The notes: generated by a model not told the origin, from the sequence alone. 64,000 bases of DNA from an uncultured virus (IMG/VR IMGVR_UViG_3300031088_000603) (IMGVR_UViG_3300031088_000603); one strand, 5' to 3'. Positions 3,695 to 63,515 are shown, numbered from the stretch's first letter. A program made the numbers and translations.

Positions 3695-4381
3695 ATGTCC
3701 CAGAACCCGTTGTTGTATCGCAACAGCCGTAACCGCAACCCCGGTCAAGCTGTCCGCAACGCGGTGCTAGAACGCAGTCGGTGGGGTGTTCCTTTCGAGG
3801 TGGACGAAAAGCTGTCTGGGATGCTATCGGAGACGTTCGAGAGCACAGCAAGACTGTGGACGGACGATAGCGCTGTCCGGGAAGCATGGTCAGTCTTCGA
3901 TGAGCAGGGTGATGTTGTCAGTCTCGAACTCTTCCTGGTCATGATCAGAACGCCATCTAACCTCCCGAATGACGACCGCATCTTCGACGGTATGAGCTAC
4001 AAGAAGCCGGAACTGTTCATCTCGGCGGATATCACCGTGGGCGAAATAGTCTTTGTCATGCAACGCTATGCAAGCATCCTGTGTCACAGCGGGTTCATGC
4101 CTGATGGTCATAGAGGTGGTTCATTCAAGCTGATCGAACAGGACATCAAAGTGGTCCGCGAGATGGTTCCCGAGCGCGAAGCTCTTGCATGGGTGTTGGC
4201 TCTGAGACTGCTCAAATCAGGACACAAGGGACTCACGGATCTAGCTCAACTCGTCATCGACAATGGATATGGATTCGAGGACATTGCGAGAGTGATCAAT
4301 GGCGGCGTGCTGAGTCGAAAGCAGTTTGAGATGGCAGTCCTACACGGTATTGACACTCAACTCATCTTGTCCGTTGCCTGA
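3695..4381 (+). CDS. NDID-tail family protein
   Basis: ITVGEIVFVMQR and ALAW motifs; C-terminus LHGIDTQLILSVA; leaderless start after TAGTAT. Confidence 0.7.
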   Translation: MSQNPLLYRNSRNRNPGQAVRNAVLERSRWGVPFEVDEKLSGMLSETFESTARLWTDDSAVREAWSVFDEQGDVVSLELFLVMIRTPSNLPNDDRIFDGMSYKKPELFISADITVGEIVFVMQRYASILCHSGFMPDGHRGGSFKLIEQDIKVVREMVPEREALAWVLALRLLKSGHKGLTDLAQLVIDNGYGFEDIARVINGGVLSRKQFEMAVLHGIDTQLILSVA

Positions 4382-4453
4382 GACGAACTGCTGCTCAGTT
4401 GACAGCAACATCTCTCAACGATAGGGTTTGAGTAATCAGATGAAAGCGGAGCG

Positions 4454-4879
4454 ATGGCTAAGACGGTAGAGCTTGAAGAAGGTCGTTACCGCGTGCCAAT
4501 GAGCGTTCTGAGTGAGTTCGTCGAATCGCCCTTCGAGTGGTGTCCGTGGGACTGTCCTTTGTTCACTGAGGCTGAGGTTCGAGAGCTTCCCGAAGACATG
4601 TCGTGTGACGTACCTTACGACGACCAGACCAACGTTCGAGACATGGTTGTAGGGCAGTCTTCCTATCACATCGCTCGCATAGCCTACCTTGTCCGTCATC
4701 AGACAGTGCTCGATGAGTACGACTACCCGGTGTTCTCGACCGACAATGCTCAGAGAGGTCTACACGCCCTTCTTGACGGTAACCACCGGTACGGCGCAGC
4801 AATCATCCGTGGCGATGAGTTCTTCATTGTCGATATCGATGGTGATATTGACTATGCACGCGAACTTTTCGATGTCTAA
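4454..4879 (+). CDS. ParB/Srx-like domain protein
   Basis: LLDGNHRYGAAIIRG motif. Confidence 0.65.
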   Translation: MAKTVELEEGRYRVPMSVLSEFVESPFEWCPWDCPLFTEAEVRELPEDMSCDVPYDDQTNVRDMVVGQSSYHIARIAYLVRHQTVLDEYDYPVFSTDNAQRGLHALLDGNHRYGAAIIRGDEFFIVDIDGDIDYARELFDV

Positions 4880-4960
4880 TATCGGTTGGGTGCCTACAAA
4901 ATCCTGAATGCGGTAGATAACCGACTACGATAGTCGTACACCGCACAGAAAGAGGATGGC

Positions 4961-5221
4961 ATGTCGCTACCAAACACATTTGTTCCCGAGTACATCGGCA
5001 AGGTTGTCGAGGTCACCGTCACCAAGCACATCAGTAACGGCACGAAGACATCGAAGTACTTCGGTCTTCTTTTGGGTTACAACGAAGAGTACTCTTCTGC
5101 CAAGGGCAAAGACATCGATGGACTATTCTTTGTGATCAAAGGCTTTGCAGATCCCATCGCAGCTACTAGCTTCGATGGAGCATCGTCCTACGAAGTGAGC
5201 CTAGCTACCAAGTCTAGCTAA
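4961..5221 (+). CDS. hypothetical protein
   Basis: SD GAGGA; ORF. Confidence 0.7.
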   Translation: MSLPNTFVPEYIGKVVEVTVTKHISNGTKTSKYFGLLLGYNEEYSSAKGKDIDGLFFVIKGFADPIAATSFDGASSYEVSLATKSS

Positions 5222-5287
5222 ACCGTCCCAGTTCTTCATACACGAACGCCCCTGTCATGTTCCGACAGGGGCGTTCGTGTTTTGCTC

Positions 5288-5689
5288 TTAGAGGTCGAAG
5301 CTGCCTCGGGCGTTGTCGAGGATGTCGCCGTCGATGTTGTAGACGTGGTTGAGGAAGATGTCTGCGACCTCTTCGAAGCTCTCTTCCTCGTCGTCCTCGT
5401 CGTGGGTGCCGGTGGCGGTCGCGATGGAGCGGAGGCTTGCGGAGTAGTTTCCGTCCTCGCTCCAGTCGAAGTTGAACTCGATGGACGTGGCGGCGGGGTA
5501 GGTCTCCTTGATGTCCTTGAGCATGTTCTGGATTGCCTGCTCGTTCTGGAGGTAGTTGAAGACCTCAGCGATGGCGGTGATGTCACGCGCACCCTCGGAG
5601 GCGGGGTCGGAGTTGTAGGCGACCAGGGCGTTCTTGACGCGGATGGCGAACTCGGCGGGGGCTTCGGTGGCGATGCTGCTGACGCTCAT
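5288..5689 (-). CDS. acidic hypothetical protein
   Basis: SD AGGAG; strong codon bias; terminator near 5242-5280. Confidence 0.75.
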   Translation of the reverse strand: MSVSSIATEAPAEFAIRVKNALVAYNSDPASEGARDITAIAEVFNYLQNEQAIQNMLKDIKETYPAATSIEFNFDWSEDGNYSASLRSIATATGTHDEDDEEESFEEVADIFLNHVYNIDGDILDNARGSFDL

Positions 5690-5856
5690 TGTGTACTCCT
5701 GAGTTATGTATGTGTTGTCGTTGTGAGTACCAATCTAGTCTGATTGGATGAGTCCTGTCAAGTTAGAATCTAAGTTTTTCGAGAAGCCTTCTGTCTTGAC
5801 ATCTAGACAGTGGTTGGTTAGTGTTGACGTACAACTACGTGTAATGGAGGACTACG

Positions 5857-6630
5857 GTGGCTATCAAGTTTACTGAATCGGGCATCACCATCTACCGTGG
5901 TGTCGCGTATCGCGAGGGTTTTGTATCTCGCCTTCGTGACATGCTGCATTACCAGCACAAGAAGAACATTGTTGCTATCCTCGTCTCCTTTGCGATCTTC
6001 GTGGGACTGAGTGTCGCATTCGTTGGTGCGGTTGTTTCCGAACAGCATGAACTCATCATTCTGGCGTTGTTCATGGCGGTTGTAATAGCCCTCCTTGTCA
6101 TGCTGATGAGGATACAAAGGGGATTTGAGAAGATTGGCAGTCGGTGGGAATCTCACATCGCCAATTGGTTTTTCTTTGCCGGTGAGTACGACAACATCCC
6201 TCTTCGGTGGATGAACCAGTGGGACGCTCTTCCTAACCGAGATGCTGCCGAAGAAGCAATCAAGGATCGGGTTGCGCACTGGGAACGTAATGAAGTGCTT
6301 GTCAAACTCATGGCTACATCAGCGTGGGATGTTCAGCGCAGCTACTACGGGGTGTTGGCTAAGTTAATGGATGCCTACTCGAAGACCGTTTCTAGAACGG
6401 TCATGGGAATGAACCTTCGGTATGAATCCAGACCCGCAGCATGGCTTGCGCTATTCATCGAAGAAACGCTACCTGTTGAGCAGTGGGACAATGATGGTAT
6501 CGATATCTACGAGGCTTTGAACCACCACCTCAGTGGAACCAAAGCAGAGGTTATCGCCCATGCAGTCGAGAACGATATCGACCCCGGACTCATGGATTCC
6601 CTACAGGGTCTTCAAGCGGTCAAGAACTAG
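5857..6630 (+). CDS. NDID-tail family membrane protein (2 TM)
   Basis: Two hydrophobic helices; C-terminus AVENDIDPGLMDSLQ. Confidence 0.75.
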   Translation: MAIKFTESGITIYRGVAYREGFVSRLRDMLHYQHKKNIVAILVSFAIFVGLSVAFVGAVVSEQHELIILALFMAVVIALLVMLMRIQRGFEKIGSRWESHIANWFFFAGEYDNIPLRWMNQWDALPNRDAAEEAIKDRVAHWERNEVLVKLMATSAWDVQRSYYGVLAKLMDAYSKTVSRTVMGMNLRYESRPAAWLALFIEETLPVEQWDNDGIDIYEALNHHLSGTKAEVIAHAVENDIDPGLMDSLQGLQAVKN

Positions 6631-6700
6631 CCTCAAACTGGCTGTTGCAAAGCCACTTCCTTTCAGGTAGTCTATTACTACCAATACCGAAGGAGACATC

Positions 6701-7201: not shown

Positions 7202-7288
7202 CTGGCACTTGTGCAGTATCAAGTGAGGTAGTACCATTTCAGTGCTGCCTCGCTTGGTTGTTAAGCGATACCTAACGGAAGATAACCT

Positions 7289-7909: not shown

Positions 7910-8626
7910 GTGCACACTGTGGCTAAGTACCAGGGCTTTGAATGGCGCTCTCAGCTTGCTGGATGGGACAACCGTATCTGGGAGGCTCCCATACCGCTCT
8001 CGAATGAGGTCAAGAAAATCAGCGGTCGCACCCTCAAGTCCGTGAGCCACTTCCACCCCCGAACTCATCGACAGGTGATTCTGAAGAAGGCTCTTGACAC
8101 CCCCAATGTGGTCTCTTTGTCCTCGCTCACTCTCGCAACTACCCAGGACAAGGATTGGGTGGTAGAGACCCTAGTCGGTTCATCTACTGACAGGATTGTC
8201 ACCGTAGGCGAACTTGCTCACACTGTCGCTCGTTTCCCCGCTGTCTTCAGGAACGATAGCGAGTACCCGGACGTGCTTCATGGAGAAGCAGATGGAAATG
8301 GTTCATTCGAGGGTGAGGCGACCGTTCGTGACTTCTACCGTAGATTCCTTGCTGAAATCAGGACCGAGATCTGCCCCGAGGACAAGGACTCTGCTCTGAG
8401 TCACTTGCTGCGGTTCGCGCGGTTCTATCGTGTCGGTCAGCACGAGAATTTGGGTAGCAAGACGGTTGCTACCGTGAAGATGCATGCTGAGTTCGGTCTG
8501 ACTTTCGACGACATGATTCGATACAACAAGCTTGGCTTTGCCACGCCCGAGTCGATTGCGGAAATCAAGAATCAGGACATCGACGAAAGCATCCTAGTAC
8601 GACTCTTGGAGGATTCACATGCTTGA
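7910..8626 (+). CDS. NDID-tail family protein
   Basis: VTVGELAHTVARFP; C-terminus NQDIDESILVRLL. Confidence 0.75.
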   Translation: MHTVAKYQGFEWRSQLAGWDNRIWEAPIPLSNEVKKISGRTLKSVSHFHPRTHRQVILKKALDTPNVVSLSSLTLATTQDKDWVVETLVGSSTDRIVTVGELAHTVARFPAVFRNDSEYPDVLHGEADGNGSFEGEATVRDFYRRFLAEIRTEICPEDKDSALSHLLRFARFYRVGQHENLGSKTVATVKMHAEFGLTFDDMIRYNKLGFATPESIAEIKNQDIDESILVRLLEDSHA

Positions 8627-9587
8627 CTTTGAACAGACCGAATGGAATGCGCCCATGCCCATTTCGAAGTCTCTCATCATGCGCGGAAACGATTTGGTGT
8701 CCGACCTCGACCAGAATCACCTCCTGGCATTGAGCGATGAGTGCCCCGCTGTTCCTGAGATCTCCGAAGAAGACCGTGCAACGATGATTGATGGGTACGA
8801 CTACTCTGATGTCAAAAACGAACTCGTCATCTCTCCCAACCTCGCCCACTACGCCACTCCGAACTCCTTCCGGTTCGACTCTACCTGGCTCAAGTGCGTC
8901 AGGACACGCGCGCCGTATGAACGACTCATGGCTTCTAAGGTGTATGCCAACACTCGCATGGACAAGAACGAAAATGCCATCCGATACGAGTATGACTTCC
9001 TGCAATTGTTCCTCAACTACGGCGATGATGCATTCAGCTTTATTCACGCGCTGTCGCCTGATGTCATTGCTCCGGCTGAGACGCTGTGGTCGCTTCCCGA
9101 AACCGATGAACTGACTCCGTTTAGGCTGTCCGTCGCCATTCGCAATGCGACAACCGACAGCAAGATTGCGAGCAGCCACTCGACTCTTATGGATGCTTTC
9201 GGAGACAGTCTTGCCGACCTCCGCATCTCCGAACTTGCTTTTGTCATCGCTCGATTCCCCAACGTTTTGACGCATAACAGCACCATCGACATCTTCTCCG
9301 AGATGGAGGGTATCTTCGAAGACAATATCGATGAAGGTCGCAAGCACCTCGGTGATGAAGCGTTCGCCTGGCTGATTGCGCTGATGAACAACGACTACCA
9401 CTTCGTCACAAATCTGGACAAATACGACATCCCTCGGTGGTTCGAGGTGCTTGCTGAGCATCAGGTGTCTTTCGATGAAGGCGTTCAGTACCTCTATGAC
9501 GGTTGCTTCAATCCTGAAGTCATTGTCGGCTTGCTGAACAACGATATCGACGATGCGCTGTTTAGTCAGATGCGAGACGTGGCATGA
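8619..9587 (+). CDS. NDID-tail family protein
   Basis: RISELAFVIARFP and AFAW; C-terminus LLNNDIDDALFSQM. Confidence 0.75.
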   Translation: MLDFEQTEWNAPMPISKSLIMRGNDLVSDLDQNHLLALSDECPAVPEISEEDRATMIDGYDYSDVKNELVISPNLAHYATPNSFRFDSTWLKCVRTRAPYERLMASKVYANTRMDKNENAIRYEYDFLQLFLNYGDDAFSFIHALSPDVIAPAETLWSLPETDELTPFRLSVAIRNATTDSKIASSHSTLMDAFGDSLADLRISELAFVIARFPNVLTHNSTIDIFSEMEGIFEDNIDEGRKHLGDEAFAWLIALMNNDYHFVTNLDKYDIPRWFEVLAEHQVSFDEGVQYLYDGCFNPEVIVGLLNNDIDDALFSQMRDVA

Positions 9588-10108
9588 GTGGGCATTTTGG
9601 TGCTAAGCCTTGGTCTGATGAGGTGATTGAAAAGGCTGACCATCCTGTACCTCGTCCTCGGACCATCAAGCAGCGTCAGCCGTATGGTGACATCATCACG
9701 ATGGAGCAGATTACGCTTGGTAACTCCTATCTCGCCACCATCAGGGTTCTCGCTGAGCAGACTGATGTGACTGTAGGTGAGGTCGCATTCGCACTCAGCC
9801 GTGACGACAGCATCCTTAAGGGAATTGGCAAGCCAGGTCATATCCCTTCGGGGTTCCCCAACTACCTCAAGAACATCAGGTTGTATAGCCGACCGTATGA
9901 GGGTCTTGCTCTTGCCTCATTCTTCTTCGGTATCCCAGTTCATGCGGCTCACGAGTTGGTGGAGATGGCAGCAAGCAAAGGTGAGGGTTACGATGAAATC
10001 GCTGCCGTTGTCGCCAGGATTGGATACAGCTACAGAAAGAGGCTGGTTGCGGCAATCGGTCATGATGTGGATGTCGAGTTGCTGGGTCATCTCAGAGGCG
10101 CAGCTTGA
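9584..10108 (+). CDS. NDID-tail family protein
   Basis: VTVGEVAFALSR; C-terminus IGHDVDVELLGHL. Confidence 0.7.
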   Translation: MSGHFGAKPWSDEVIEKADHPVPRPRTIKQRQPYGDIITMEQITLGNSYLATIRVLAEQTDVTVGEVAFALSRDDSILKGIGKPGHIPSGFPNYLKNIRLYSRPYEGLALASFFFGIPVHAAHELVEMAASKGEGYDEIAAVVARIGYSYRKRLVAAIGHDVDVELLGHLRGAA

Positions 10109-10139: not shown

Positions 10140-11240
10140 ATGACTTCAAACGAGACTAGCGCGCCTGTGCTGAAAACTGGCGACTTCGCGATCTCCTACA
10201 ACAAGAAGCATGACCGCATCAGCCTCCTATCCGATGACGGCGACTTCGCTGTTGAGGTCGAGACCGGTAGCAAGGCTGAACTTCGATTCCGACGAACCCT
10301 GGTTCGCAATGGTGTGATTGAGCCTGTCGCGCTTACCCTTTTCAATGACATCGAACTGGTTGACGCACCCAACCGATCCATCGATGCTGCCCTCGTCAAT
10401 GATGACCGACCCATCGCTTCGGCAGTCAACATCAACTTCTTCAAGAACCTGTTCATCCCTCACCAGGACGATGTTCGCTACTGGCTAGTCACGCAGAACG
10501 TGGCAGATGAGATTCTTGATGAGGTGATGAATCTCATGTCTACGCTCTCGAATAAGCAGCGCTATGCCGATGCCACTGACGACAACATCAAGCGGTTCGT
10601 CGAGATCCTCCTGTGGGAGAACTCGTACTTTGAGAGCGATATTGGTCTTGCCTGCTTCGATGGTCGCAACCAGTCCAAGCTCATTTCCGGCTCCACCGTG
10701 CGAGATGGTAAGCCCGTCACCATGCTCGACCTTTGCTTCATCACGCACGTATTCCGGGATGAGATGGACTGGTCAAACGTCACCGTTGCTGAGCTTGCAT
10801 TCGCTCTTGGGCGCAACAAGTCGCTGTTCAACTACGTGAAGAGCACGGGTAATTCAGGCAACAAGAGCAGCACGAAAAGTGATGCAGCGATGCGTTTTGT
10901 CACGCTAAAGCAGTTCCGTGCAGTCACCAATAACAACTCGGCATTTGCATGGATGCTGTTGAGCAATAAGGCTGGTGAGGACGCAGGTCAGGCGCGCGCC
11001 AAGCTTGTTGATCGTGTACGCCGGGACGCTGAGCGTCGTCTAGCCCGTGATGCTGTTCGTGGTGCTTGTAAGATGGTTGCAAAGGAGTTCGGCTTCGACC
11101 ATGCAGAGGCTATCTTCAACCAGAAGCACACCTACTTCACGGCGGGGATCATCTTCCCCGACTACATCATCAATGGGGTGCGGGCTGACCTCGACGTGGA
11201 TATCCTGCTTGCTATCCACGGTACGGAGCTACCCTCATGA
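10140..11240 (+). CDS. NDID-tail family protein
   Basis: VTVAELAFALGR and AFAW; C-terminus VRADLDVDILLAI; leaderless start behind a TTGACG promoter. Confidence 0.75.
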   Translation: MTSNETSAPVLKTGDFAISYNKKHDRISLLSDDGDFAVEVETGSKAELRFRRTLVRNGVIEPVALTLFNDIELVDAPNRSIDAALVNDDRPIASAVNINFFKNLFIPHQDDVRYWLVTQNVADEILDEVMNLMSTLSNKQRYADATDDNIKRFVEILLWENSYFESDIGLACFDGRNQSKLISGSTVRDGKPVTMLDLCFITHVFRDEMDWSNVTVAELAFALGRNKSLFNYVKSTGNSGNKSSTKSDAAMRFVTLKQFRAVTNNNSAFAWMLLSNKAGEDAGQARAKLVDRVRRDAERRLARDAVRGACKMVAKEFGFDHAEAIFNQKHTYFTAGIIFPDYIINGVRADLDVDILLAIHGTELPS

Positions 11241-11752
11241 GCATTGAGTCAATGTATATCTCGCACAGTACCCCCGAAGAGTACCGGGGTAGGAAGCTTC
11301 CAAAGGGGCAGTTCTCGGAGTGGCTTTCAGCGTTCCTTGACACCGAGCAACTACCCCGTTGGATTATGTTGCAGTGGTTCGACACGGTAGGCGACAAGGG
11401 CATCATCGATGACTTTCTCTACCGCAACTCGTGGGTCATTATGGACAAGATCAAGTCACGTCATGACTATGGCATGGTTCGTAATGCACAGTCGAATGTC
11501 GCGGTGAACCTCCGATGGCACAGGCGCGAGATTGCTAAGGTTGACTACTATCAGCGATTTGAGGGCGAATCCTTCATGGTCACGGTGATGTGTTTTGCCG
11601 GTGCTCCGCTGGAAAAGGTTCTCGAACTACAGCGACTGGGAATCGATAAGGTATTCTCTCTGTTTGTGAGGAAGATCCCCATCGATGACATCGCGGGATT
11701 CCTAGAGAACGATATCGACCTTTCTCTCATTGAATCGCTCCGGGAAGGGTGA
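11237..11752 (+). CDS. NDID-tail family protein
   Basis: C-terminus FLENDIDLSLIESLREG. Confidence 0.75.
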   Translation: MSIESMYISHSTPEEYRGRKLPKGQFSEWLSAFLDTEQLPRWIMLQWFDTVGDKGIIDDFLYRNSWVIMDKIKSRHDYGMVRNAQSNVAVNLRWHRREIAKVDYYQRFEGESFMVTVMCFAGAPLEKVLELQRLGIDKVFSLFVRKIPIDDIAGFLENDIDLSLIESLREG

Positions 11753-12752
11753 CGTTTTGGATGATGGCATCCCATACCTAGGGCGCAACAGGTCCGTGAA
11801 TGGTCGCGGCACGCTAGCGCTCATTGGTGGTGCCAGGATGAGGTCTGAGCTTCGGATGCTTGTCGAAAAGAAAGACAATGCTGCTAGGGCGCTTGGCATC
11901 TCAACTGAGCAGATTGACACCTTTGTCTCTTATTGGGGAGAGATGCTTGGTGCCTTTGCCGATGACACTAAGAACGACCATCCCAATGACTGCTCAGGGC
12001 AATTGGGTGAAATTAGGGTGGGGTCGGATAGAGTCGGCAGTGTCGTCATTTTGGACGTGCTGAACCTCGTTGACATCATGTGCGTAGTCTTCCCACAGAT
12101 GAGGTTCGATCCTCAGTGGGAGATGCAGGAGGTGCGGTGTGACAGGTGCTATGAGACCTTTACTGCGGCGATTGTCGAAGTGGACTCGCTTCCTCCTATC
12201 ATGGATGCATTCAACAAGGATGTCCCCGTGTGTGCATTTACGCTATCGACGGTCTACAGCAATTTCGCTGGGGTCTTCTCTGCGCTACGGAAGATCGATA
12301 TCAGCAACGAGGATGTCACCCGCGCCATAAAAGACCTCACAGGGGCGCAGGTGGCTTCTGAGCCGTACTTTGGCTCGACGTGGGTGCCGACAACATGGGG
12401 TGCTCAGTATGGTGGGTTATCAGCTTTGCGAAAGATTAGACGGCATCTTGAACTCTGGAAGAGCAATGGCGCTTCTGATGAAGTTGCACTGATGGCTCTC
12501 TTGGTTGAGTGCATTATTCACCAAGGTGACGTGGAAAGCGCGGTGTGGTCATTCATCACTAAGACGCTAGCTGACCCCGATGAGCGAGCGAGGTTCATGT
12601 ATGAACTCGACAAGTTCCACTCCATCTGGCAAAGAGAGACCCCTGAGCCAGAGATATCCGACGACCGGCTACGTAGGTTCGCTCGGGCGTATGAATTCGG
12701 TATCGATTTCGGTATCTTGAATGAACTTAGCGGAGAACGCTACGTATCCTAA
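11730..12752 (+). CDS. NDID-tail family protein with CxxC (start uncertain); paralogue of 47546
   Basis: VRCDRCYETF; WKSNGASDEVALMALL; C-terminus YEFGIDFGILNEL. Confidence 0.65.
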   Translation: MNRSGKGDVLDDGIPYLGRNRSVNGRGTLALIGGARMRSELRMLVEKKDNAARALGISTEQIDTFVSYWGEMLGAFADDTKNDHPNDCSGQLGEIRVGSDRVGSVVILDVLNLVDIMCVVFPQMRFDPQWEMQEVRCDRCYETFTAAIVEVDSLPPIMDAFNKDVPVCAFTLSTVYSNFAGVFSALRKIDISNEDVTRAIKDLTGAQVASEPYFGSTWVPTTWGAQYGGLSALRKIRRHLELWKSNGASDEVALMALLVECIIHQGDVESAVWSFITKTLADPDERARFMYELDKFHSIWQRETPEPEISDDRLRRFARAYEFGIDFGILNELSGERYVS

Positions 12753-32603: not shown

Positions 32604-32620
32604 TGGTTTCTCTCCCTTTA

Positions 32621-45028: not shown

Positions 45029-45187
45029 ATGGACCTTTACGAGACCAACGAAGAAGCCTACGAGCGAGGTAGGGCTGATGAGCGTCAGTTCATCCAGAAC
45101 ACGGTCCAGAAGAACGGTTACGACTGGGGTCAGGACCGACGATTCTCGCCTCTTCAGCACCTACTCAACTGGTTGAATGCGCGCTGA
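45029..45187 (+). CDS. 52-aa hypothetical protein (MDLYETNEEAYERG...)
   Basis: Manual translation; TGATG coupling to 45187. Confidence 0.55.
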   Translation: MDLYETNEEAYERGRADERQFIQNTVQKNGYDWGQDRRFSPLQHLLNWLNAR

Positions 45188-47545: not shown

Positions 47546-48553
47546 GTGATTGTTGGCGTGGGAACGGGTCGTGACGTTGGGTGGTATCAGCCGCTTGCGG
47601 TCGTCGCTGGGCACAGAGCTTCTCAGCAGAAATTAGAGATGGCTCGGGGTGCAACCAATCTAGCGACCCGTTTCGACATCTCGGTGAGTCGGGTAGCCCG
47701 GTTCGTCGATAACTGGGCAGCGCCTCTTGCTGATTCTGAAACGACTATCCCTGCAACTCGCAACCTCACGTACTGTAACTGTCGAGCGGGGTTGGCTATA
47801 GGATCAAGCAGTCCCGATCCTGACTCACTATCGACCGAAATCACCGTTCTCAATTTGAATGACCTGCTCGATATCACGGCAAACACCGATGTGACTGAGT
47901 TGGTTCTTCCGGGTACTACAGCAGAGGCATGGGAGCTATCGGGGAGACATGATTACCTTGTATGCGCTTCATGTCGAGGTAGCTTTGAGGCTTTCGTGTT
48001 CGATGAACACCCATCCGCTTTCATGGGATTCAGAGGAACGAAGTTCACGCAATTTGAGAAGACCTTCCTCCTACCCGAATGGTCTGAGTGCATTGAAATG
48101 TTCGAGCGTAGTACGAAGCTCGAAGTGGATGATTTGAGTGCGGCAGTGAACAGCCTTACTCAGGACTTGTTGGATACAGATCCCACGTTCGGCAGGGGGT
48201 GGAGTCCAGTCAATTTCGGACTAGCTGATTTCGAGTGGGCTGTAGAGAGATGGCAAGATGCGGGCGCTAATAAGGAAATCGCGGTGATGTCCGTTCTCAT
48301 GGAAGCACTTGCTTATCAGATCCCAGATTGCTACACGCCAGACCAGTGGTCAATCGATGTCATGAGTGACAGTACCAAAAGACGAGAGGTCGTCTTACGC
48401 GCCAACGCCCTCATCGGTAAGATGTCAAGAGGCGGGTCTTTCACGTGGCGTTCTGATGCTGATTCCAAGACAAGGTTCCGGTACATTCTCAATCTCGTAG
48501 ACAACGATATCGATAGCTTACTTGGTGAATCACTCCGGTTTGGTGCCTTGTAG
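47546..48553 (+). CDS. NDID-tail family protein with Cys motifs (paralogue of 11730)
   Basis: YCNC, VCASCRGSF and WQDAGANKEIAVMSVL; LVDNDIDSLLGESL. Confidence 0.7.
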   Translation: MIVGVGTGRDVGWYQPLAVVAGHRASQQKLEMARGATNLATRFDISVSRVARFVDNWAAPLADSETTIPATRNLTYCNCRAGLAIGSSSPDPDSLSTEITVLNLNDLLDITANTDVTELVLPGTTAEAWELSGRHDYLVCASCRGSFEAFVFDEHPSAFMGFRGTKFTQFEKTFLLPEWSECIEMFERSTKLEVDDLSAAVNSLTQDLLDTDPTFGRGWSPVNFGLADFEWAVERWQDAGANKEIAVMSVLMEALAYQIPDCYTPDQWSIDVMSDSTKRREVVLRANALIGKMSRGGSFTWRSDADSKTRFRYILNLVDNDIDSLLGESLRFGAL

Positions 48554-51046: not shown

Positions 51047-51829
51047 ATGATGGGTAGAGCGCTAGCTCCTGACTTGAAATCTCTGGACTGTACGGCTTAT
51101 GACGTAGCCAGCACTCTCACGTCGGACATGAAGAACAACTACTGGTCGGAGATACCTACCCGCCGACTTGTTGACGAATGCATGCGCCGCGAAGGCTACT
51201 CTGACAAGGTTCGCGAAGAGGTTCTCGCGATGACCGTCTTCGACACCTTCAGCGGTGATGAAGACGTAGAGGCTGACGTGGTGTCCGTGTTCGTCAGATC
51301 GGCTTTGTGGGGCGGCGACGAACTACTTCTTGCCGATCAAGACACGCTTTGTGAGCTTCCCGAAGTCTCCCATCTGCTGTTCTCGTCGGATTGGCATGAA
51401 GATAGACCAATCGACAAAGAAGAGTTGACTCTTATCCATTCCTCTCTTGGTCACTATCAACTGTGGCATCGTGTGTCGGCACAAGAGCTTGCCTATGCAG
51501 CGTCACTCAGGAGAGGTCTTCTTGTCGGTGCACTCACGCACAAGGAAGACCAAATCTACACCTTTGATGATGAGCCGAAGTACGAGCACATCTTCGAGTA
51601 TGTCGCCATCGCACGTCGATACGTCAGCGATGATTCTGCGCTCCTGTGGGCAGTGAACTGTGATGCTTACGAGATGGATGTCGATGAGTATGAGGCGCTA
51701 GTTCAGATGTGCTCTGTCGAAGATGCAATGCTGTATCTCGACGCTGGTGTCACAAATGCTTCGACGATAATCAGGATGCTGAAAAGTGACGTAGATCCGT
51801 CAGTGGCACATTCATTCGTTTCTTCTTGA
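51047..51829 (+). CDS. NDID-tail family protein
   Basis: VSAQELAYA and SALLW; MLKSDVDPSVAHSF. Confidence 0.7.
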   Translation: MMGRALAPDLKSLDCTAYDVASTLTSDMKNNYWSEIPTRRLVDECMRREGYSDKVREEVLAMTVFDTFSGDEDVEADVVSVFVRSALWGGDELLLADQDTLCELPEVSHLLFSSDWHEDRPIDKEELTLIHSSLGHYQLWHRVSAQELAYAASLRRGLLVGALTHKEDQIYTFDDEPKYEHIFEYVAIARRYVSDDSALLWAVNCDAYEMDVDEYEALVQMCSVEDAMLYLDAGVTNASTIIRMLKSDVDPSVAHSFVSS

Positions 51830-53865: not shown

Positions 53866-54450
53866 TTGGTACAAGCAGTGAATATCGAATGGCATGAACC
53901 CTTGGAGTGGACCGCTAGCGTCAAAGAGTGGGCTGATCAGAACCTCAGAGATCTTGAATCTCTGAATGAGAGTTGGTTCTTCCGGGACATGAACCACAAG
54001 GGCGAGCTACTGATGTTCATGCTGTACGACGCTTGGATGCTCGACAGCAATAAGTACTCCACTGATGCTTTTGAATTCAAGGGTAGGGTTACGATTGGTG
54101 AGTATGCATTCCTGGCTGCCAGAACCCTCGGGGGCGAAACCAGTCGAGTTTCTGTTCCGCAGTCATCTATGCGTAGCGACGATTTCTTCGATATCGAAGA
54201 ACTGGATATCGAACCTCATTCTGCTTTGGCATGGCAAGTCCACTTCGATAGATACAGACACCTATACGAAAACAAGAGCGCACTGCTCAACACCAAGAGA
54301 GCTATCGAGTTCGGTATCAGCTATGACAAGCTCCACAGCTACCTGAAGACATTCGACAACAATAGTCGTCGTTATGTTGAGTTCGGCTTGATCGATAACG
54401 AGCTTGACAATGCCCTGCTCGACTCCCTCTCCGATGGCGCAAATGCGTAG
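53866..54450 (+). CDS. NDID-tail family protein
   Basis: VTIGEYAFLAAR and SALAW; LIDNELDNALLDSL. Confidence 0.7.
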   Translation: MVQAVNIEWHEPLEWTASVKEWADQNLRDLESLNESWFFRDMNHKGELLMFMLYDAWMLDSNKYSTDAFEFKGRVTIGEYAFLAARTLGGETSRVSVPQSSMRSDDFFDIEELDIEPHSALAWQVHFDRYRHLYENKSALLNTKRAIEFGISYDKLHSYLKTFDNNSRRYVEFGLIDNELDNALLDSLSDGANA

Positions 54451-55081
54451 TTCGGCTAGATCTGTAACCAAGTTCCTAGCTGCCCGGTTTCCATACCTGC
54501 GACCGAAAACACCCCCTTACTACATCTTCATAGCCAGTGTTCCGCTGTCTCTAATCTCTGTCTTTACGGCGGTGATTGGAGGCGTACTCGGGTCGCTTGC
54601 TTTCTTCGTGATTTCACTCTTGTTGGTCATGGTGTTCGCGGGGACGGCAATATCAACCTTGGTGATTGAGCGGGGTAGCTCTGGTTCCATATGGTATCGC
54701 GTTACCAACTTCCAGAAGGTTTCTGGTGCTCCGCGTTCGTATGTGGATGAATGGTACAAAGCGGTCAACTATGACATGGGAATGCTTGGAGAGATTATCG
54801 ATGATCTGTTTGAGCCTCACCGTATGACTCCTGCCCTCAGCGGATATGCTCGGAAAACCCGTAAAAAGGTCATAGGTGTATCAGAAGGCAACAGGGCTGC
54901 GGCTATGTTGCTGCTCATGATTGGCTGCGAGCCGGATGCCATTTTGAGTTGGGACGATATGGATATGGGTGCTGTCCTGCGTTGCCTGAAAGCTGGTGTG
55001 CCTGTAGATAGCCTCAGGAGCTTCGTTCAGAACGACATCGATCCTCAGATGGCTCACAGCATGCTCTCTACTTGGGACTGA
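54443..55081 (+). CDS. NDID-tail family membrane protein
   Basis: Two TM segments; FVQNDIDPQMAHSM. Confidence 0.7.
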   Translation: MRSSARSVTKFLAARFPYLRPKTPPYYIFIASVPLSLISVFTAVIGGVLGSLAFFVISLLLVMVFAGTAISTLVIERGSSGSIWYRVTNFQKVSGAPRSYVDEWYKAVNYDMGMLGEIIDDLFEPHRMTPALSGYARKTRKKVIGVSEGNRAAAMLLLMIGCEPDAILSWDDMDMGAVLRCLKAGVPVDSLRSFVQNDIDPQMAHSMLSTWD

Positions 55082-59613: not shown

Positions 59614-59868
59614 CTAATGAGTGTAGACGTGCCTCATGCGTTCATTGATATCAGAAACCTGTCGCGGCAATGTGAACAGGTCGATGATGGTGCCAATCCC
59701 GAACAAGCCCCACGTGAGTAGCCAGATGACACCCTTGACCGGCTTGCCTAGATAGAAGTGCTGGATGCCTGCAACGAGAACGAAGGTGAGCGCCCAGAGA
59801 AGGTAGGCGAGTCCAAGATCCTTCTGTGGTTGAGTCGGGCTGATGTAAACGGGTTGTGGTGTGCTCAT
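59614..59868 (-). CDS. TM2-domain (NINE-like) protein
   Basis: KDLGLAYLLW..GIQHFYLGK..GVIWLLTWGLFGIGTIIDLFTLP. Confidence 0.85.
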   Translation of the reverse strand: MSTPQPVYISPTQPQKDLGLAYLLWALTFVLVAGIQHFYLGKPVKGVIWLLTWGLFGIGTIIDLFTLPRQVSDINERMRHVYTH

Positions 59869-59979
59869 GGTGCTCCAATGATGTCGCGGAATGGTATTTT
59901 AGACCCGAATGAGTACCCGTATCGGAAAACCAAACCAGACTTGATGACATTGGTACTACGGTGCTACCCTGTCTGTACT

Positions 59980-61026
59980 ATGGATTCGTCGCCACATACG
60001 CTTTCGGAGCTTGTTGCTCGGCGTATTGTCACGCCAAGAAAGCCGAGCGTGGTTCAGGGCTACTACCCCAAGCATAGTGAGTTCGTGGCAACGCTCAGGG
60101 ATGAGTGCGATGTACATGGGTTCGATTTCAAAGAGGCGCTTGCTGAGTACAAAGACAGCAGCCTGCGGGAACTCTTTGCTGACTCCGACTACAAGAGGTT
60201 CCCTACCGGACTCAATAGGAACGTCACTGCTGAGGTCAATCAGATGCAGCGTATAGACACCAGCTACATGACCCGTGTGCCGCTAGCCTATGGGTTCCTT
60301 GTCAATCCCGCCCGAGCTTCTGCATACATGGTGCAGTGGACTGAGAACAAGGCTGATAACGTCGTCTCAACCGATCTACAGCCACCCCATGTATGGCTGC
60401 GGCACGCGAATCGAATGCCAGGTGATGTCATCCCACGTAACCTTCGATTGGCATTCAAGACCGAGTTCTGGCGGACGGATATCACCAAGGTCGAGCCACA
60501 CAAAGTTGAGTCAAAAATCGCACGTTCATTCGGTGCTGAGGGTGCATTGGTCGATGCGTTTAGCCTTCCGATGACTCCCAACCGAGACCAATTTTCGGGG
60601 CTGTGTAACGTGCTACCACTGTCGGCATACGCGGCGCACCTTCGACCTTCTGTACAGGATGCGGTGAGTGCCCAGTGGCTGTTCAATGAGTTCTCATCCC
60701 GTGTCGATAAGCTATCTGTACCAGGCAGAGAAAAGACAAACAGTAAGGCTGTGTACGAGTTCACCGCCAAGATCGATATCGCCACCTCACACACCGCATA
60801 TGCCATAGCAAGGCGTGAATGGGGAAGTGACTACCCGCTCTCGTGGTCCATTCTGGGAGAGTATTTGAACCTTGCTGTAGATGAAGTTCGCCGCGCCGCG
60901 TTGACCGATGCCGTGCCTTCTCAGATATTCAGATTGATGACAGAAGGGCTGAGCTACCAAGAGGCAGTTATGGTGTCAGGCAGCGGAATGGACGACAGCC
61001 TCTTCAACTCTCTCCGCGCTGCGTAA
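59980..61026 (+). CDS. hypothetical protein with degenerate NDID tail
   Basis: C-terminus VSGSGMDDSLFNSLRAA; leaderless start. Confidence 0.65.
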   Translation: MDSSPHTLSELVARRIVTPRKPSVVQGYYPKHSEFVATLRDECDVHGFDFKEALAEYKDSSLRELFADSDYKRFPTGLNRNVTAEVNQMQRIDTSYMTRVPLAYGFLVNPARASAYMVQWTENKADNVVSTDLQPPHVWLRHANRMPGDVIPRNLRLAFKTEFWRTDITKVEPHKVESKIARSFGAEGALVDAFSLPMTPNRDQFSGLCNVLPLSAYAAHLRPSVQDAVSAQWLFNEFSSRVDKLSVPGREKTNSKAVYEFTAKIDIATSHTAYAIARREWGSDYPLSWSILGEYLNLAVDEVRRAALTDAVPSQIFRLMTEGLSYQEAVMVSGSGMDDSLFNSLRAA

Positions 61027-61385: not shown

Positions 61386-61865
61386 GTGTACTTCGTAGTC
61401 AATGAGCGTCACCGTCCCGGCACCTACAACGCACCCCGGCACTCGGAAGAGGAAGAGACTCGCCGCCGTGCCGTGAACATCGATGTTCACGAGCGCTACT
61501 ACGCCGCCCTGGTCCGATACGCCGAGGACGAGCCGCGCATCAGCATCAAGCCCAAGGAAGACCAATTCTTCCCAACTACGTTGACCATCTACGTCGATGG
61601 CGGTCACGAGTGGGCGTACGTCACGTGGGCTGGTTTTGGTCAGGAAGACCGCCGCCCCATCGAAGAGTGGCGCGGTCACGTCGTGCTTCGTGCTTCGACC
61701 GAAGAGGCGCAGTACGAGCTTCTCGACATGCGAAACCTCGACTACAACGTCTTCAAGTACGGTGATGCTCAGGCGCGAATCGTCATCAATGCGGTCAAGG
61801 CTCACATCGAGAGCGGCTTCGCGGAGCCTGTCAAGGTGTCCAGCAACATCGGGTTCCAGATCTAA
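61386..61865 (+). CDS. hypothetical protein
   Basis: Codon bias. Confidence 0.7.
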   Translation: MYFVVNERHRPGTYNAPRHSEEEETRRRAVNIDVHERYYAALVRYAEDEPRISIKPKEDQFFPTTLTIYVDGGHEWAYVTWAGFGQEDRRPIEEWRGHVVLRASTEEAQYELLDMRNLDYNVFKYGDAQARIVINAVKAHIESGFAEPVKVSSNIGFQI

Positions 61866-62037
61866 GAACCTCACATCAAGGGCGTGACTACTTACGGGTG
61901 GTCACGCCCTTTGTGGTTGCATAGCGGTAGTCATTTGTGATGAGTGCGAGTGTTACAGGAGTGTTTCGTGATGCCAAAGTGAGCTATGGGGTACAAACCT
62001 GAGTTAGAATCTGCCGCACTACCAAGGGGAGTACATC

Positions 62038-62286
62038 ATGCAGCAGAGAACGCCAGAAGAAACCAAGGTCATGCTCGAAGCAATCGCACGCGAGACCAGG
62101 AGGCTTGTAGACACCTGGGGCGGAGTTGACTACGACTGGGCAATCGGCGTAGTGGCTCGTGCGAACAACCACCGATACAACCGCACCGAGGTTCGTTTTG
62201 GAATCAGCGAAGCTGTCAAGAATGGTTACCTCGATATCAAGACGCTGCCTGGCGACCTCAGCAAGAGCATTCACCCCGGAGCCTAA
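62038..62286 (+). CDS. hypothetical protein
   Basis: SD GGGGAG. Confidence 0.65.
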   Translation: MQQRTPEETKVMLEAIARETRRLVDTWGGVDYDWAIGVVARANNHRYNRTEVRFGISEAVKNGYLDIKTLPGDLSKSIHPGA

Positions 62287-62365
62287 GGAACTGGTAGGCG
62301 TTGACACCATGACAAATATACGGTAAGTTGTTTATACCACTACAGGATACGTCAAGGAGAACACA

Positions 62366-62776
62366 ATGGCTGAGAAGACCAGCGCTGAGATCGGTAACGA
62401 GATCCTCGCAATCGTTCGCAGTGCGCACTCGATGAAGTCGGAACTCTACAGCCGCGTTCTCATCGCGCAGAAGTTCATCAAGGACTTCTACCGCGAGAAC
62501 CACCACTTCACCGAGCACCGTTACGCCGCTTTCGAGAACTCGACGGGGCTATCCATCGAGAACATCGATGCTGAGGGAATTTTCCTCGACGTGGACTACG
62601 ACGACGGTGCCTACATCACATTCGACGACCTCGACAACATCAAGACATACCTTAAGCAGGACTACGAGGTGTTCAAGGCTAACTTCGCCGCCAGGGAGGA
62701 AGAGCGAATCGCTCTCCAGGGTCGTAAGCTCCGCGAAGAGCTTGACGCTCTCGAATCCACACGACAGGTGATCTAA
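62366..62776 (+). CDS. hypothetical protein
   Basis: TTGACA promoter; SD AAGGAG. Confidence 0.75.
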   Translation: MAEKTSAEIGNEILAIVRSAHSMKSELYSRVLIAQKFIKDFYRENHHFTEHRYAAFENSTGLSIENIDAEGIFLDVDYDDGAYITFDDLDNIKTYLKQDYEVFKANFAAREEERIALQGRKLREELDALESTRQVI

Positions 62777-62778
62777 CC

Positions 62779-63066
62779 ATGATGAACGACAAGGAACTGG
62801 CTCGAATCGTTGATGTGGCTTCCGGTGTGACTTACCAGGAGCTTCCCGAGGGTTACTTCATCAAGCTCACCGAAGAGGTCACGAGTGACGAGCATGAGAT
62901 CGTGCGAGCCATCGTCATCGAGGATGTTGAGTCCGGAAAGTTCTACCGGACTCTGTTCCGGTTCAACTACTACTCGCAGTACGGCGAGCCGATTGGCGGT
63001 GTCTCTGACCTCCAAGAGGTCTTTCCTCGCGAAGTGATGACCGTCGTCTACGAGCGCGCTCAGTAG
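62779..63066 (+). CDS. hypothetical phage-type protein
   Basis: GKFYR..Y..EVFPREVMTVVYE. Confidence 0.7.
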   Translation: MMNDKELARIVDVASGVTYQELPEGYFIKLTEEVTSDEHEIVRAIVIEDVESGKFYRTLFRFNYYSQYGEPIGGVSDLQEVFPREVMTVVYERAQ

Positions 63067-63515
63067 TGCCCGCCCAGCCTCTTTCGATGGAGGGTGAACT
63101 CCGATACCGCCATGCGGAAGAGTTCACCCTCCGCCGTGCGTTTTCCGGTAGTGATGATTCCTACATCGTTTGGCTCGCGTGGCACGACATCACGAAGTCC
63201 GACTTGACGTTTGATATCAATGCCTTGGGTGTAGACCGCGACTCTGCTATCTCGTCACTTGATATCGATGAGCTTGATGAGATGTGGGAGAAGGTGGTTC
63301 ATACAGACCCAGTTAGTCGTTTAGTGTGGATATTGACAGCGAAGATTACTCACCTTAAACTTGACGACCTACTCTTGATGATTGAACGTGGAGTGGATGT
63401 TGATGACTACCGCAAGTGGTATTTCTCTGGTATCTCACCCGAGCGGATAGCCGTCATGGTGAGGGACATGGATGGCAGTTTGATTGAGTCGTTCCTGTTC
63501 GGTTCGCAAGGCTAG
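63066..63515 (+). CDS. protein with degenerate NDID tail
   Basis: SGISPERIAVMVRDMDGSLIESFL. Confidence 0.6.
   Translation: MPAQPLSMEGELRYRHAEEFTLRRAFSGSDDSYIVWLAWHDITKSDLTFDINALGVDRDSAISSLDIDELDEMWEKVVHTDPVSRLVWILTAKITHLKLDDLLLMIERGVDVDDYRKWYFSGISPERIAVMVRDMDGSLIESFLFGSQG

What the first reader, a model, noticed from the sequence alone, without database searches (positions are those of the whole stretch)
3695..63515. About 20 diverse proteins end in the same 'x(E/N)NDIDxxLxxSL' C-terminal tail
Seen, C-termini: 3695 LHGIDTQLILSV, 5857 VENDIDPGLMDSL, 7910 KNQDIDESILVRL, 8619 LNNDIDDALFSQM, 9584 IGHDVDVELLGHL, 10140 VRADLDVDILLAI, 11237 LENDIDLSLIESL, 11730 YEFGIDFGILNEL, 40962 VANDIDEGILDSF, 41615 VGNDIDYQTFLSF, 42294 AENDIDADLFKNF, 42998 AENDIDIQTFDSF, 45187 REHDIDHDLFGSL, 45937 VANNIDMTLLLSL, 47546 VDNDIDSLLGESL, 51047 LKSDVDPSVAHSF, 53866 IDNELDNALLDSL, 54443 VQNDIDPQMAHSM, 59980 SGSGMDDSLFNSL and 63066 VRDMDGSLIESF. 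A helix-Gly-helix usually precedes it. Bodies are soluble, TM-anchored or Cys-rich. No protein carries both this tail and the DKNG leader. Inference: a docking module that lets many variable adaptors plug into one hub, such as a protease/AAA+ ATPase or a phage scaffold.
Basis: partly seen in the sequence, partly recalled or inferred. Interest (0 to 1): 0.85.

Follow-up and report, generated by a model that had tools for sequence, protein, structure and literature searches.

The report
New helical tail domain, twenty paralogs
Twenty genes in this stretch really do end in the same short sequence, which is the last part of a small, previously undescribed helical domain found only in a few uncultured plant-associated bacteria; its function is still unknown.

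Summary
Twenty ORFs (19 on +, one on -) end in x(E/N)NDIDxxLxxS(L/F), 0-22 residues before the stop. The coordinates in the finding are ORF starts, not motif positions. In a leave-one-out HMM test, 18 of 20 rank directly behind the training set. Codons vary, so the conservation is at protein level.

The tail is not a free peptide. It is the loop and last helix of a folded, mostly acidic, cytoplasmic all-alpha domain (AF2 pLDDT 87.9, 8 helices). The domain looks built from ~24-26-residue helix-loop-helix units.

There are three or four subfamilies, each homologous over its full length: membrane-anchored with 1-2 TM helices, soluble with a 'TVGExAF' motif, and a CxxC pair. Across subfamilies only the last 25-70 residues are shared.

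Pfam, NCBIfam, PHROGs and PADLOC gave no match, and PDB and BFVD gave no clear fold relative. A profile search of 1.84 billion proteins gave 49 hits. Thirty-one are true C-terminal matches, 16 of them near-copies of window proteins. All come from metagenomes, on contigs up to 654 kb. A neighbouring gene family sits on an 805-kb contig, so the locus is probably chromosomal.

Best reading is a non-enzymatic adaptor domain on variable N-terminal modules. No hub was found, and the protease/AAA+/phage-scaffold idea has no support.

The parts
3617..4381 (+). Soluble member (254 aa), degenerate tail LHGIDTQLILSV, motif 4340-4378
   Evidence: Leave-one-out E 0.0096. Shares the 'TVGExxF..R' and 'ALAW' motifs with 9584.
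5857..6630 (+). 2-TM member (257 aa), tail ENDIDPGLMDSL, motif 6568-6606
   Evidence: Leave-one-out E 1.1e-7. Relatives P0010, P0013, P0025 and P0049 are 24-27% identical.
7910..8626 (+). Soluble member (238 aa), tail NQDIDESILVRL, motif 8570-8608
   Evidence: Leave-one-out E 0.024, ranked directly behind the training set.
8619..9587 (+). Soluble member (322 aa), tail NNDIDDALFSQM, motif 9537-9575
   Evidence: Leave-one-out E 3.3e-6. Hit on the tail only by the independent A4 profile.
9584..10108 (+). Soluble member (174 aa), tail GHDVDVELLGHL, motif 10058-10096
   Evidence: Leave-one-out E 0.09. The AF2 model is poor (pLDDT 50.6) but helical.
10140..11240 (+). Weak member (366 aa), tail RADLDVDILLAI, motif 11181-11219
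   Evidence: Not recovered by leave-one-out (E 9.8). Shares the TVAELAFALGR motif with the soluble group.
11237..11752 (+). Soluble member (171 aa), tail ENDIDLSLIESL, motif 11705-11743
   Evidence: Leave-one-out E 3.2e-8.
11730..12752 (+). Weak member (340 aa, 6 Cys), tail EFGIDFGILNEL, motif 12693-12731
   Evidence: Not recovered by leave-one-out (E 65). Full-length paralog of 47546 (BLASTP E 2e-10).
40962..41510 (-). 1-TM member (182 aa), the only one on the minus strand, tail ANDIDEGILDSF, motif 40998-41036
   Evidence: Leave-one-out E 3.5e-8. Relative P0022 is 59% identical.
41615..42301 (+). 2-TM member (228 aa), tail GNDIDYQTFLSF, motif 42194-42232
   Evidence: Leave-one-out E 6.2e-14.
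42255..42998 (+). 2-TM member (247 aa; relative P0001 starts 27 codons later), tail ENDIDADLFKNF, motif about 42900-42935
   Evidence: Leave-one-out E 4.9e-10. Motif coordinates computed by hand from the translation.
42998..43636 (+). 2-TM member (212 aa), tail ENDIDIQTFDSF, motif 43550-43588
   Evidence: Leave-one-out E 4.7e-9.
45187..45927 (+). 2-TM member (246 aa), tail EHDIDHDLFGSL, motif 45841-45879
   Evidence: Leave-one-out E 1.8e-4.
45937..46473 (+). Soluble member (178 aa), tail ANNIDMTLLLSL, motif 46423-46461
   Evidence: Leave-one-out E 3e-8.
47546..48553 (+). Cys-containing member (335 aa), tail DNDIDSLLGESL, motif 48500-48538
   Evidence: Leave-one-out E 0.37 but ranked directly behind the training set. 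Paralog of 11730.
51047..51829 (+). Soluble member (260 aa, 5 Cys), tail KSDVDPSVAHSF, motif 51782-51820
   Evidence: Leave-one-out E 9.5e-4.
53866..54450 (+). Soluble member (194 aa), tail DNELDNALLDSL, motif about 54394-54429
   Evidence: Leave-one-out E 0.22, ranked directly behind the training set. Motif coordinates computed by hand.
54404..55081 (+). TM member (225 aa), tail QNDIDPQMAHSM, motif 55028-55066; its last 122 residues (54713-55078) are the modelled domain
   Evidence: AF2 pLDDT 87.9, pTM 0.80, 8 helices. Leave-one-out E 4.1e-8.
59758..61026 (+). Soluble member (422 aa by the longest ORF; relative P0009 is 343 aa), tail GSGMDDSLFNSL, motif 60979-61017
   Evidence: Leave-one-out E 4.1e-4.
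63066..63515 (+). Soluble member (149 aa), tail VRDMDGSLIESF, motif 63459-63497
   Evidence: Leave-one-out E 7.7e-5.

Best explanation
The shared tail is the C-terminal cap of a small, non-enzymatic, cytoplasmic, mostly acidic all-alpha domain. The domain appears to be built from ~24-26-residue helix-loop-helix units of the form G-h-P-x-x-x-I-x-x-h-V-E-N-D-I-D-x-x-L-x-x-S-L. The conserved N and D residues sit in the loop between the last two helices and probably act as helix caps (inferred).

The domain defines an unannotated protein family restricted to a few uncultured, plant-associated, probably actinobacterial organisms. It is expanded to 20 genes in this 64-kb, probably chromosomal, island. 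Three or four subfamilies (1-2-TM anchored, soluble with a 'TVGExAF' motif, a CxxC pair) share only this end.

The mechanism I commit to is inferred, not shown. The domain is a protein-protein adaptor that ties different N-terminal modules (membrane anchors, soluble domains) to one common partner or to each other. This is the way effector-associated domains couple variable proteins to a core component.
For: Shown:
- The motif and module are real and far above chance.
- Conservation is at protein level, with varied codons. Against a 98%-identical strain, pN/pS over nine genes of the cluster is 0.23 (69 synonymous and 53 non-synonymous differences).
- A confident 8-helix model places the motif in the loop before the last helix: pLDDT 87.9, pTM 0.80, blocks over the motif 94 and 86.
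- The last 75 residues carry net charge -10 to +1 in 20 of 20 members.
- In 7 of 7 TM members the flanks are K/R-rich and the inter-TM loops are not, which puts the domain in the cytoplasm by the positive-inside rule (inference).
- Across subfamilies, 6 of the 8 window members left out of the A4 profile match it only over its last 17-38 positions. The other 2 are missed.
- BLASTP of the bodies without tails finds only six pair links at E<=0.01 among 20 proteins.
- No enzymatic or other family appears in any of the 20 in Pfam, PHROGs, PADLOC or NCBIfam.
- Fifteen relatives at 24-59% identity keep the same C-terminal motif, and several sit on one 654-kb contig.
- A second locus, L001, keeps two members and the same upstream gene.

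The repeat nature rests on hhalign of unit 1 against unit 2 (P=3e-4) and on a 30.4-bit single-stretch match to a tandem array of the same unit in P0023.

The analogy to EADs comes from passages read in PMC7159879.
Against: - No partner or hub was identified.
- No protein in the window carries the module together with an NTPase, peptidase or other core-type domain.
- The conserved N-D-I-D may be purely structural (helix capping), so conservation alone does not show a binding site.
- I had no model coordinates and could not map conservation onto the surface.
- Only one subfamily gave a confident model. The soluble member 9584 gave pLDDT 50.6.
- The internal-repeat signal is weak (hhalign probability 40%).
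- The profile also hits de novo designed helical repeats, so part of the signal is generic to G-capped helical hairpins.
- Two listed members (10140, 11730) are not statistically supported.
Confidence: 0.5

Rival explanations
1. Plain paralogy without a common partner. The 20 genes are diverged copies of a few helical proteins. The tail is conserved only because it is the folding cap of the helical-repeat domain, and each paralog binds something different or nothing.
For: Within subfamilies homology extends 85-120 residues or the full length. N at a helix C-cap and D at an N-cap are classic structural positions (established knowledge; inferred here). The same unit pattern recurs in unrelated and even designed repeat proteins. 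No hub was found.
Against: The last unit is much better conserved than the preceding units of the same domain across subfamilies. This includes surface-type polar residues (E, N, D, S) over 36 sequences from several organisms.
Confidence: 0.27
2. A short linear docking or degradation signal, read by a protease/AAA+ unfoldase, a secretion system or a phage scaffold.
For: The motif sits 0-22 residues from the C-terminus in all 20. It is acidic-hydrophobic like known C-terminal docking tips (recalled: SSB tip, FtsZ C-terminal peptide).
Against: The motif is modelled as part of a folded domain with pLDDT 86-94, not after a disordered linker. Seven members are membrane proteins with the tail on the cytoplasmic side, which argues against export. 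No protease, AAA+, secretion or phage structural family was found among the window ORFs scanned. The locus is probably chromosomal.
Confidence: 0.08
3. A nucleic-acid-binding helical-repeat or HTH-like domain that targets the variable N-termini to DNA or RNA.
For: Weak structural resemblance to TALE/BurrH and mTERF repeats (VIA Z 2.5-3.0). The repeat proteins hit by the profile give sub-threshold MerR/HHH Pfam scores. Lsr2 and HA-domain genes lie in the same window.
Against: Net charge of the last 75 residues is -10 to +1, and 17 of 20 are negative. No HTH family is seen in Pfam even at E<=5. The Z scores are far below the level the tool calls meaningful for helical proteins.
Confidence: 0.05

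Closest known systems
Effector-associated domains (EADs) of NTP-dependent bacterial conflict systems (Kaur, Burroughs, Iyer, Aravind, eLife 2020, PMC7159879; passages read with 'find')
   Same: Both are small, non-enzymatic, mostly all-alpha domains at a protein terminus. Both are lineage-specific, present in several copies per locus or genome, and fused to variable modules. EADs are proposed to work by homotypic or adaptor interactions.
   Different: EADs are defined by one copy on a core component (VMAP, iSTAND, GAP1, Ubl) and further copies on enzymatic effectors. Here no core NTPase/vWA component and no enzymatic effector domain was found in the window. No Pfam family of any kind matched.
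Tandem ~26-residue helix-loop-helix repeat arrays in haloarchaeal DUF1102 proteins (P0020 and P0023; source names for P0020 and P0059) and the C-terminal arrays of some M56 (BlaR1-type) peptidases (P0019, P0028, P0036, P0042, P0044, P0046, P0048)
   Same: They share the unit pattern G-[VI]-P-x-[DE]-D-I-x-x-Y-V-x-E-G-I-D-x-x-L. One 55-residue stretch of P0023 scores 30.4 bits against the tail profile, including the 'GID..L' part.
   Different: Those proteins carry 5-10 tandem units, are from unrelated phyla, and are unannotated themselves. The window proteins have only about two recognisable units, always at the very C-terminus. Homology versus convergence is not settled.
De novo designed helical repeat proteins (PDB 5cwb, 8cwy, 8cws, 7mwr)
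   Same: They are the only hits at E<0.01 of the tail profile in the PDB (E 6.6e-11 to 1.6e-3, summed over repeats). They share a G-capped helix, an N-cap S/D-x-x-E, and a ~25-residue half unit.
   Different: Designed proteins cannot be homologs. The hits show that part of the profile signal is generic helical-hairpin grammar.
C-terminal docking peptides (SSB acidic tip, FtsZ C-terminal peptide, proteasome-activator HbYX/GQYL tails); recalled, not tested by a tool
   Same: A conserved acidic-hydrophobic motif at the extreme C-terminus of proteins.
   Different: Those are short peptides after disordered linkers on one protein family. Here the motif is inside a folded domain on many different proteins.

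Membership tests
Any curated family in Pfam-A, NCBIfam, PHROGs or PADLOC | HMM match at or near the curated threshold | tested here: not met
   None of the 20 proteins has a hit above a curated cut-off. Two weak sub-threshold TM-region hits to PF03706. Tails alone at E<=5: five unrelated families, each hit by one member.
Effector-associated domains (EAD1-10) | Small non-enzymatic terminal domain, mostly alpha-helical | tested here: met
   8-helix model. No enzymatic family found.
Effector-associated domains (EAD1-10) | One copy fused to a core component (vWA-MoxR partner, STAND, GAP1, Ubl) in the same locus or genome | tested here: inconclusive
   None among the window ORFs scanned. The rest of the genome is not held.
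Effector-associated domains (EAD1-10) | Further copies fused to enzymatic effector or signalling domains | tested here: not met
   No effector-type Pfam domain in any of the 20.
HTH / helical-repeat nucleic-acid binders (MerR, HhH, TALE, mTERF) | Family HMM match, or a clear fold match and a basic binding surface | tested here: not met
   No Pfam hit. Net charge -10 to +1. The fold part is inconclusive: VIA Z at most 3.0 for TALE/BurrH/mTERF.
C-terminal linear docking or degron motif | Motif lies in a disordered tail, outside a folded domain | tested here: not met
   Motif residues fall in pLDDT blocks 94 and 86 and form the loop plus helix 111-120 of the model. This was shown for one subfamily only.
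Known solved fold | Significant structural match | tested here: inconclusive
   Foldseek against PDB: 0 matches at E<=1e-3. VIA wide: best Z 4.8, and 0 of 48,161 chains at Z>=5. BFVD: 0 at E<=1e-3.
Phage-encoded family | Homologs or neighbours in phage genomes | tested here: not met
   tblastn of 54404 against 50,697 phage records and 72,556 plasmids found none. The IMG/VR scan found none. No structural PHROG in 74 other ORFs. Relatives lie on contigs of 654 and 805 kb.

The most novel reading that the evidence does not exclude
The window holds two mutually exclusive address modules that form a plug-and-socket system. The C-terminal NDID helical-repeat domain (20 proteins, seven of them membrane-anchored) would be the receptor. 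The N-terminal beta-hairpin-like leader '(I/V)(I/V)DKNGKxTTVH(R/K)' (eight to nine proteins in the same island) would be its peptide ligand. Together they would build a private, lineage-specific interaction network that recruits leader-bearing proteins to the membrane or to soluble partners. Nothing tested here excludes this, and it was not tested: the only complex job went to a homodimer.
Probability: 0.07. Interest if true: 0.8.

Novelty: new variant of a known kind. Interest (0 to 1): 0.45.

Why it matters
If the adaptor reading is right, this is a new, compact (~70-120 aa) protein-protein coupling domain, expanded more densely (20 genes in 64 kb) than most known adaptor families. It occurs in an uncultured, plant-surface, probably actinobacterial lineage in which few of the ~90 ORFs scanned (about 14) match any curated family. 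The domain gives a handle (an HMM and a confident model) for annotating a block of genomic dark matter, and a concrete pull-down target. If the tail is only a structural cap, the finding reduces to a new lineage-specific paralog family, which is ordinary.

Tried and rejected
- **Whole genome:** not held, so no genome-wide census.
- **GTDB species genomes:** two scans (YitT; TM-subfamily alignment) confirmed nothing. The second used only one narrow peptide pattern, so absence is not proven.
- **IMG/VR scan:** none.
- **Metagenome scan:** two loci only. L002 is the same element, 98% identical to window 5290-16085.
- **Handle searches:** not possible.
- **Word-index protein search with A2:** only 2 hits, less useful than the exhaustive search.
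- **Exhaustive search, other hits:** 18 of its 49 hits are long or multi-stretch repeat proteins. I scanned 17 of them against Pfam and did not examine the 6,458-aa P0015. Seven are M56 peptidases, and others include a LysM and a DUF5801 protein. I treat them as repeat-grammar matches, not family members.
- **ESM Atlas for 54404:** best feature score 0.83, below the tool's own lead level. Structure rows had TM<=0.36. Nothing usable.
- **Atlas for YitT:** no taxonomic help.
- **Homodimer co-fold of the 122-aa domain:** the tool returned 'no answer' (0.15 against a mark of 0.42). This counts neither for nor against self-association.
- **Second AF2 job, soluble 9584:** pLDDT 50.6, too poor for a fold search.
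- **PDB profile search with A4:** nothing below E 0.049.
- **DNA-repeat or RBS-artefact explanation:** rejected because the codons vary.
- **ParB-like idea for gene 4454 (from the 'DGNHR' motif):** recalled only. Pfam at E<=5 does not support it.
- **Literature search for a described family:** 0 papers. That single four-term query is my only search for prior description, so 'not in print' is weakly based.
- **RNA evidence:** contigs from two metatranscriptome libraries lie on parts of 41.0-47.0 kb (X19 6 pieces, X20 5 pieces). The tool warns this does not show transcription, and uncovered parts mean nothing.
- **Earlier-findings look-ups:** nothing on this genome or sequence.

Full report
**Observation**

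The coordinates in the finding are ORF starts, or for 40962 the low end of the only minus-strand member. The motifs themselves lie 0-22 residues before the stop codons (with two rows re-anchored by hand).

The chance controls are as follows.
- A loose regular expression finds 18 matches in 833 six-frame ORFs, against 4.08 on average (maximum 10) in 50 shuffles. Sixteen of the 18 are within 23 residues of an ORF end.
- An HMM built on the last ~70 residues (alignment A1) finds no further ORF in the window better than E=3.8, and nothing better than E=1.6 in reversed sequences.
- In leave-one-out runs, 14 of 20 are recovered at E<0.01. Four more rank directly behind the training set (E 0.024-0.37). 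Two (10140, 11730) are not recovered.

Codons for the conserved residues vary freely (GAT/GAC, ATC/ATT, four Ser and five Leu codons). This is therefore protein-level conservation, not a DNA repeat or the next gene's ribosome-binding site.

Against a 98%-identical strain (L002), nine genes of the first cluster show 69 synonymous and 53 non-synonymous differences, pN/pS 0.23. The ORFs are real genes under purifying selection.

**Anatomy**

The conserved element is longer than the 12-residue tail. Over 36 sequences the consensus is D.....rl...Gvp...i..AveNDID.sL..Sl..g. In the membrane-anchored group, alignment continues about 120 residues back to a 'PxRWxxxW..AGG' helix.

AlphaFold2 on the last 122 residues of 54404, with a 27-row alignment, gives pLDDT 87.9 and pTM 0.80 with eight helices. 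The NDID residues form the loop before the last helix (111-120), in blocks of pLDDT 94 and 86. The tail is therefore part of a folded domain, not a flexible peptide.

The two last helix pairs resemble each other (G-h-x-x-x-x-h-x-x-W-D-D-M-D... against G-V-P-x-x-x-I-x-x-V-E-N-D-I-D...). hhalign of the two units gives P=3e-4 but only 40% probability, so an internal ~24-residue repeat is suggested rather than proven.

The last 75 residues are acidic to neutral in all 20, with net charge -10 to +1.

Seven members have one or two N-terminal TM helices. Their flanks are K/R-rich and their inter-TM loops are not, which by the positive-inside rule places the domain in the cytoplasm (inference). None of the soluble members has an obvious signal peptide by eye. 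I ran no predictor for this.

**Is it one fold or a module on different bodies?**

It is both, at different levels.
- BLASTP of the bodies without tails links only a few pairs: 11730-47546, 41615-42255, and weak links among 3617, 8619, 9584, 10140 and 51047.
- With tails included, the TM group 40962/41615/42255/42998/54404 forms one cluster.
- The soluble group shares further motifs: an N-terminal 'W..P.P', then 'TVGExAF..R', then 'ALAW'.
- A profile made from the TM group and its relatives (A4) was run against the eight window members it did not contain. It aligns to six of them only over its last 17-38 positions (E 3.5e-5 to 0.053 in a 20-sequence database). It misses two.

So three or four subfamilies, each homologous over its full length, share only the last 25-70 residues.

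**What it resembles**

- None of the 20 proteins matches Pfam, PHROGs, PADLOC or NCBIfam. The tails alone give no recurrent Pfam family even at E<=5.
- The model has no Foldseek match at E<=1e-3 in the PDB or in BFVD.
- The Foldseek-independent search gives best Z 4.8, with 0 of 48,161 chains at Z>=5. The top rows are a TBC GAP domain, a designed cage, and TALE/BurrH and mTERF repeats. This is well below what the tool regards as meaningful for helical proteins.
- The tail profile hits only de novo designed helical repeat proteins in the PDB at E<0.01. Part of its signal is therefore generic grammar of G-capped helical hairpins.
- In the exhaustive search of 1.84 billion representatives there are only 49 hits at E<=1e-3.
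  - Thirty-one are single C-terminal matches, all of which carry the motif. Sixteen are 80-100% identical to window proteins and 15 are 24-59% identical.
  - The other 18 are long or multi-stretch repeat proteins, including M56 peptidases with C-terminal arrays and haloarchaeal DUF1102 proteins.
  - One of the repeat proteins, P0023, matches the tail profile over a single 55-residue stretch at 30.4 bits, including '...YVDEGIDLKLV...'. The tail unit may thus belong to a wider, unannotated class of ~26-residue helical-hairpin repeats. Homology is not settled.

**Where it lives**

- The diverged relatives come only from metagenome-derived collections and are all named 'hypothetical protein' or unnamed.
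- Four relatives (P0013, P0022, P0030, P0050) lie on one 654-kb contig. Others lie on contigs of 637, 205 and 156 kb.
- A near-identical copy (97%) of the neighbouring gene 17110 lies on an 805-kb contig. The locus is therefore probably chromosomal rather than phage.
- In keeping with that, there are no phage structural PHROGs in 74 other ORFs, no tRNA, no match in 50,697 phage or 72,556 plasmid records, and none in IMG/VR.
- Actinobacterial affinity rests on three things. These are an Lsr2 gene whose phage homologs are all from actinophages (best 35.5%, a Curtobacterium phage), a DUF2510 domain, and HA domains.
- The 7.7-kb test stretch is held by 20 public runs from 16 studies labelled phyllosphere, straw, leaf litter, plant or food metagenome. 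One of these may be the source.
- The window also holds defence genes: PD-Lambda-1, a HindVP-type endonuclease and a DUF4238 protein.
- A second locus from another organism (L001) keeps a TM member, a soluble member and the same small upstream gene as in the window.

**Mechanism**

What is shown is a folded, acidic, cytoplasmic, non-enzymatic helical domain at the C-terminus of proteins whose N-terminal parts differ. It is conserved at protein level across organisms and massively duplicated.

What is inferred is that it mediates protein-protein contacts and so ties variable modules, seven of them membrane anchors, to a common partner or to each other. The closest documented principle is that of effector-associated domains (passages of PMC7159879). 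However, the features that define EADs were not found in the window. Those features are a copy on a core NTPase/vWA component and copies on enzymatic effectors. The rest of the genome could not be examined.

I give this reading 0.5. The main rival (0.27) is that the tail is merely the structural cap of a helical-repeat fold in ordinary diverged paralogs. A linear degron or docking signal (0.08) and nucleic-acid binding (0.05) are disfavoured by the fold model and by the charge, respectively.

**Limits**

- No model coordinates were available to me, so I could not ask whether the conserved polar residues are exposed.
- Only one subfamily gave a confident model.
- Genomic context of relatives was limited to 4.4 kb (L001).
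- The single complex job returned no verdict (see Tried and rejected).

**Verdict**

This is a real, statistically solid, previously unannotated domain family with an unusually dense local expansion. The 'one hub' idea remains an untested but reasonable hypothesis. The specific hubs proposed (protease/AAA+, phage scaffold) have no support.

Noticed in passing
13436-14587 (+), 15836-17113 (+), 17110-18276 (+), 18273-18791 (+), 19788-20747 (-), 29135-29902 (-), 46529-47494 (+); variants at 28229-29098 (-) and 40164-40886 (+): A second module family. Seven proteins start with '(I/V)(I/V)DKNG(K/R)xTTVH(R/K)', or the close variant 'IDKNGRRYTRM' in 29135, within the first 25 residues. Two more carry looser variants. 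Three of them (13436, 15836, 17110) are full-length paralogs (BLASTP E 1e-43 to 1e-69). The others share only the ~33-residue leader. None carries the NDID tail. The word-index search found only six relatives, all unnamed and without Pfam domains.
   Followed up: partly
23513-25501 (-): A 662-aa protein with N-terminal DUF2510, DUF4041 and a C-terminal T5orf172 domain. It matches the PADLOC model PD-Lambda-1 (E 8.9e-97), so it is a likely anti-phage defence gene.
   Followed up: partly
52699-53997 (-): HindVP-type type II restriction endonuclease (Pfam E 5.5e-111). No methyltransferase family was seen among the window ORFs I scanned. Other strains carry a 196-bp deletion just upstream (52528-52725).
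   Followed up: no
32244-34924 (-): An Lsr2-like gene (32244-32624) is directly followed by three proteins with helicase-associated (HA) domains. Two of them (32621, 33974) are paralogs.
   Followed up: no
38654-40112 (+): Three tandem paralogs (148, 200 and 168 aa; the last two are 84% identical) of an unannotated acidic protein. The ORFs 38654-39100 and 39004-39606 overlap as called, so one start is probably wrong.
   Followed up: no
4454-4879 (+) and L001:1-405: A small conserved protein with a 'LLDGNHRY' motif sits upstream of the TM tail gene in both the window and the distant locus L001, so the synteny is conserved. The motif recalls ParB/Srx-type 'DGxHR', but Pfam gives no support.
   Followed up: partly
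58181-58885 (+) and L001:1352-2788: Two proteins share a pilin-like N-terminus ('LWR.D.AE.S.M.TIS..VSA' followed by a hydrophobic helix). This could be a TadE- or pseudopilin-like class III signal. That resemblance is recalled and not tested.
   Followed up: no
10140-11240 (+): Against the 98%-identical strain L002, this one gene has 73 differences (pS 0.157). Its neighbours have 0-13 differences (pS 0-0.05). This is a local divergence or recombination hotspot.
   Followed up: no
12709-12765 and 55099: Strain mosaicism. L002 carries about 570 extra bases at 12709/12765, which changes the C-terminus of the 11730 homolog. Contigs of two other runs diverge into AT-rich sequence right after the stop of 54404.
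   Followed up: no
6701-7201 (+): A TM-anchored protein with a cyclic-phosphate-processing receiver domain (cREC_REC, Pfam E 3.4e-16; phrog_1479) is embedded in the first tail-gene cluster.
   Followed up: no
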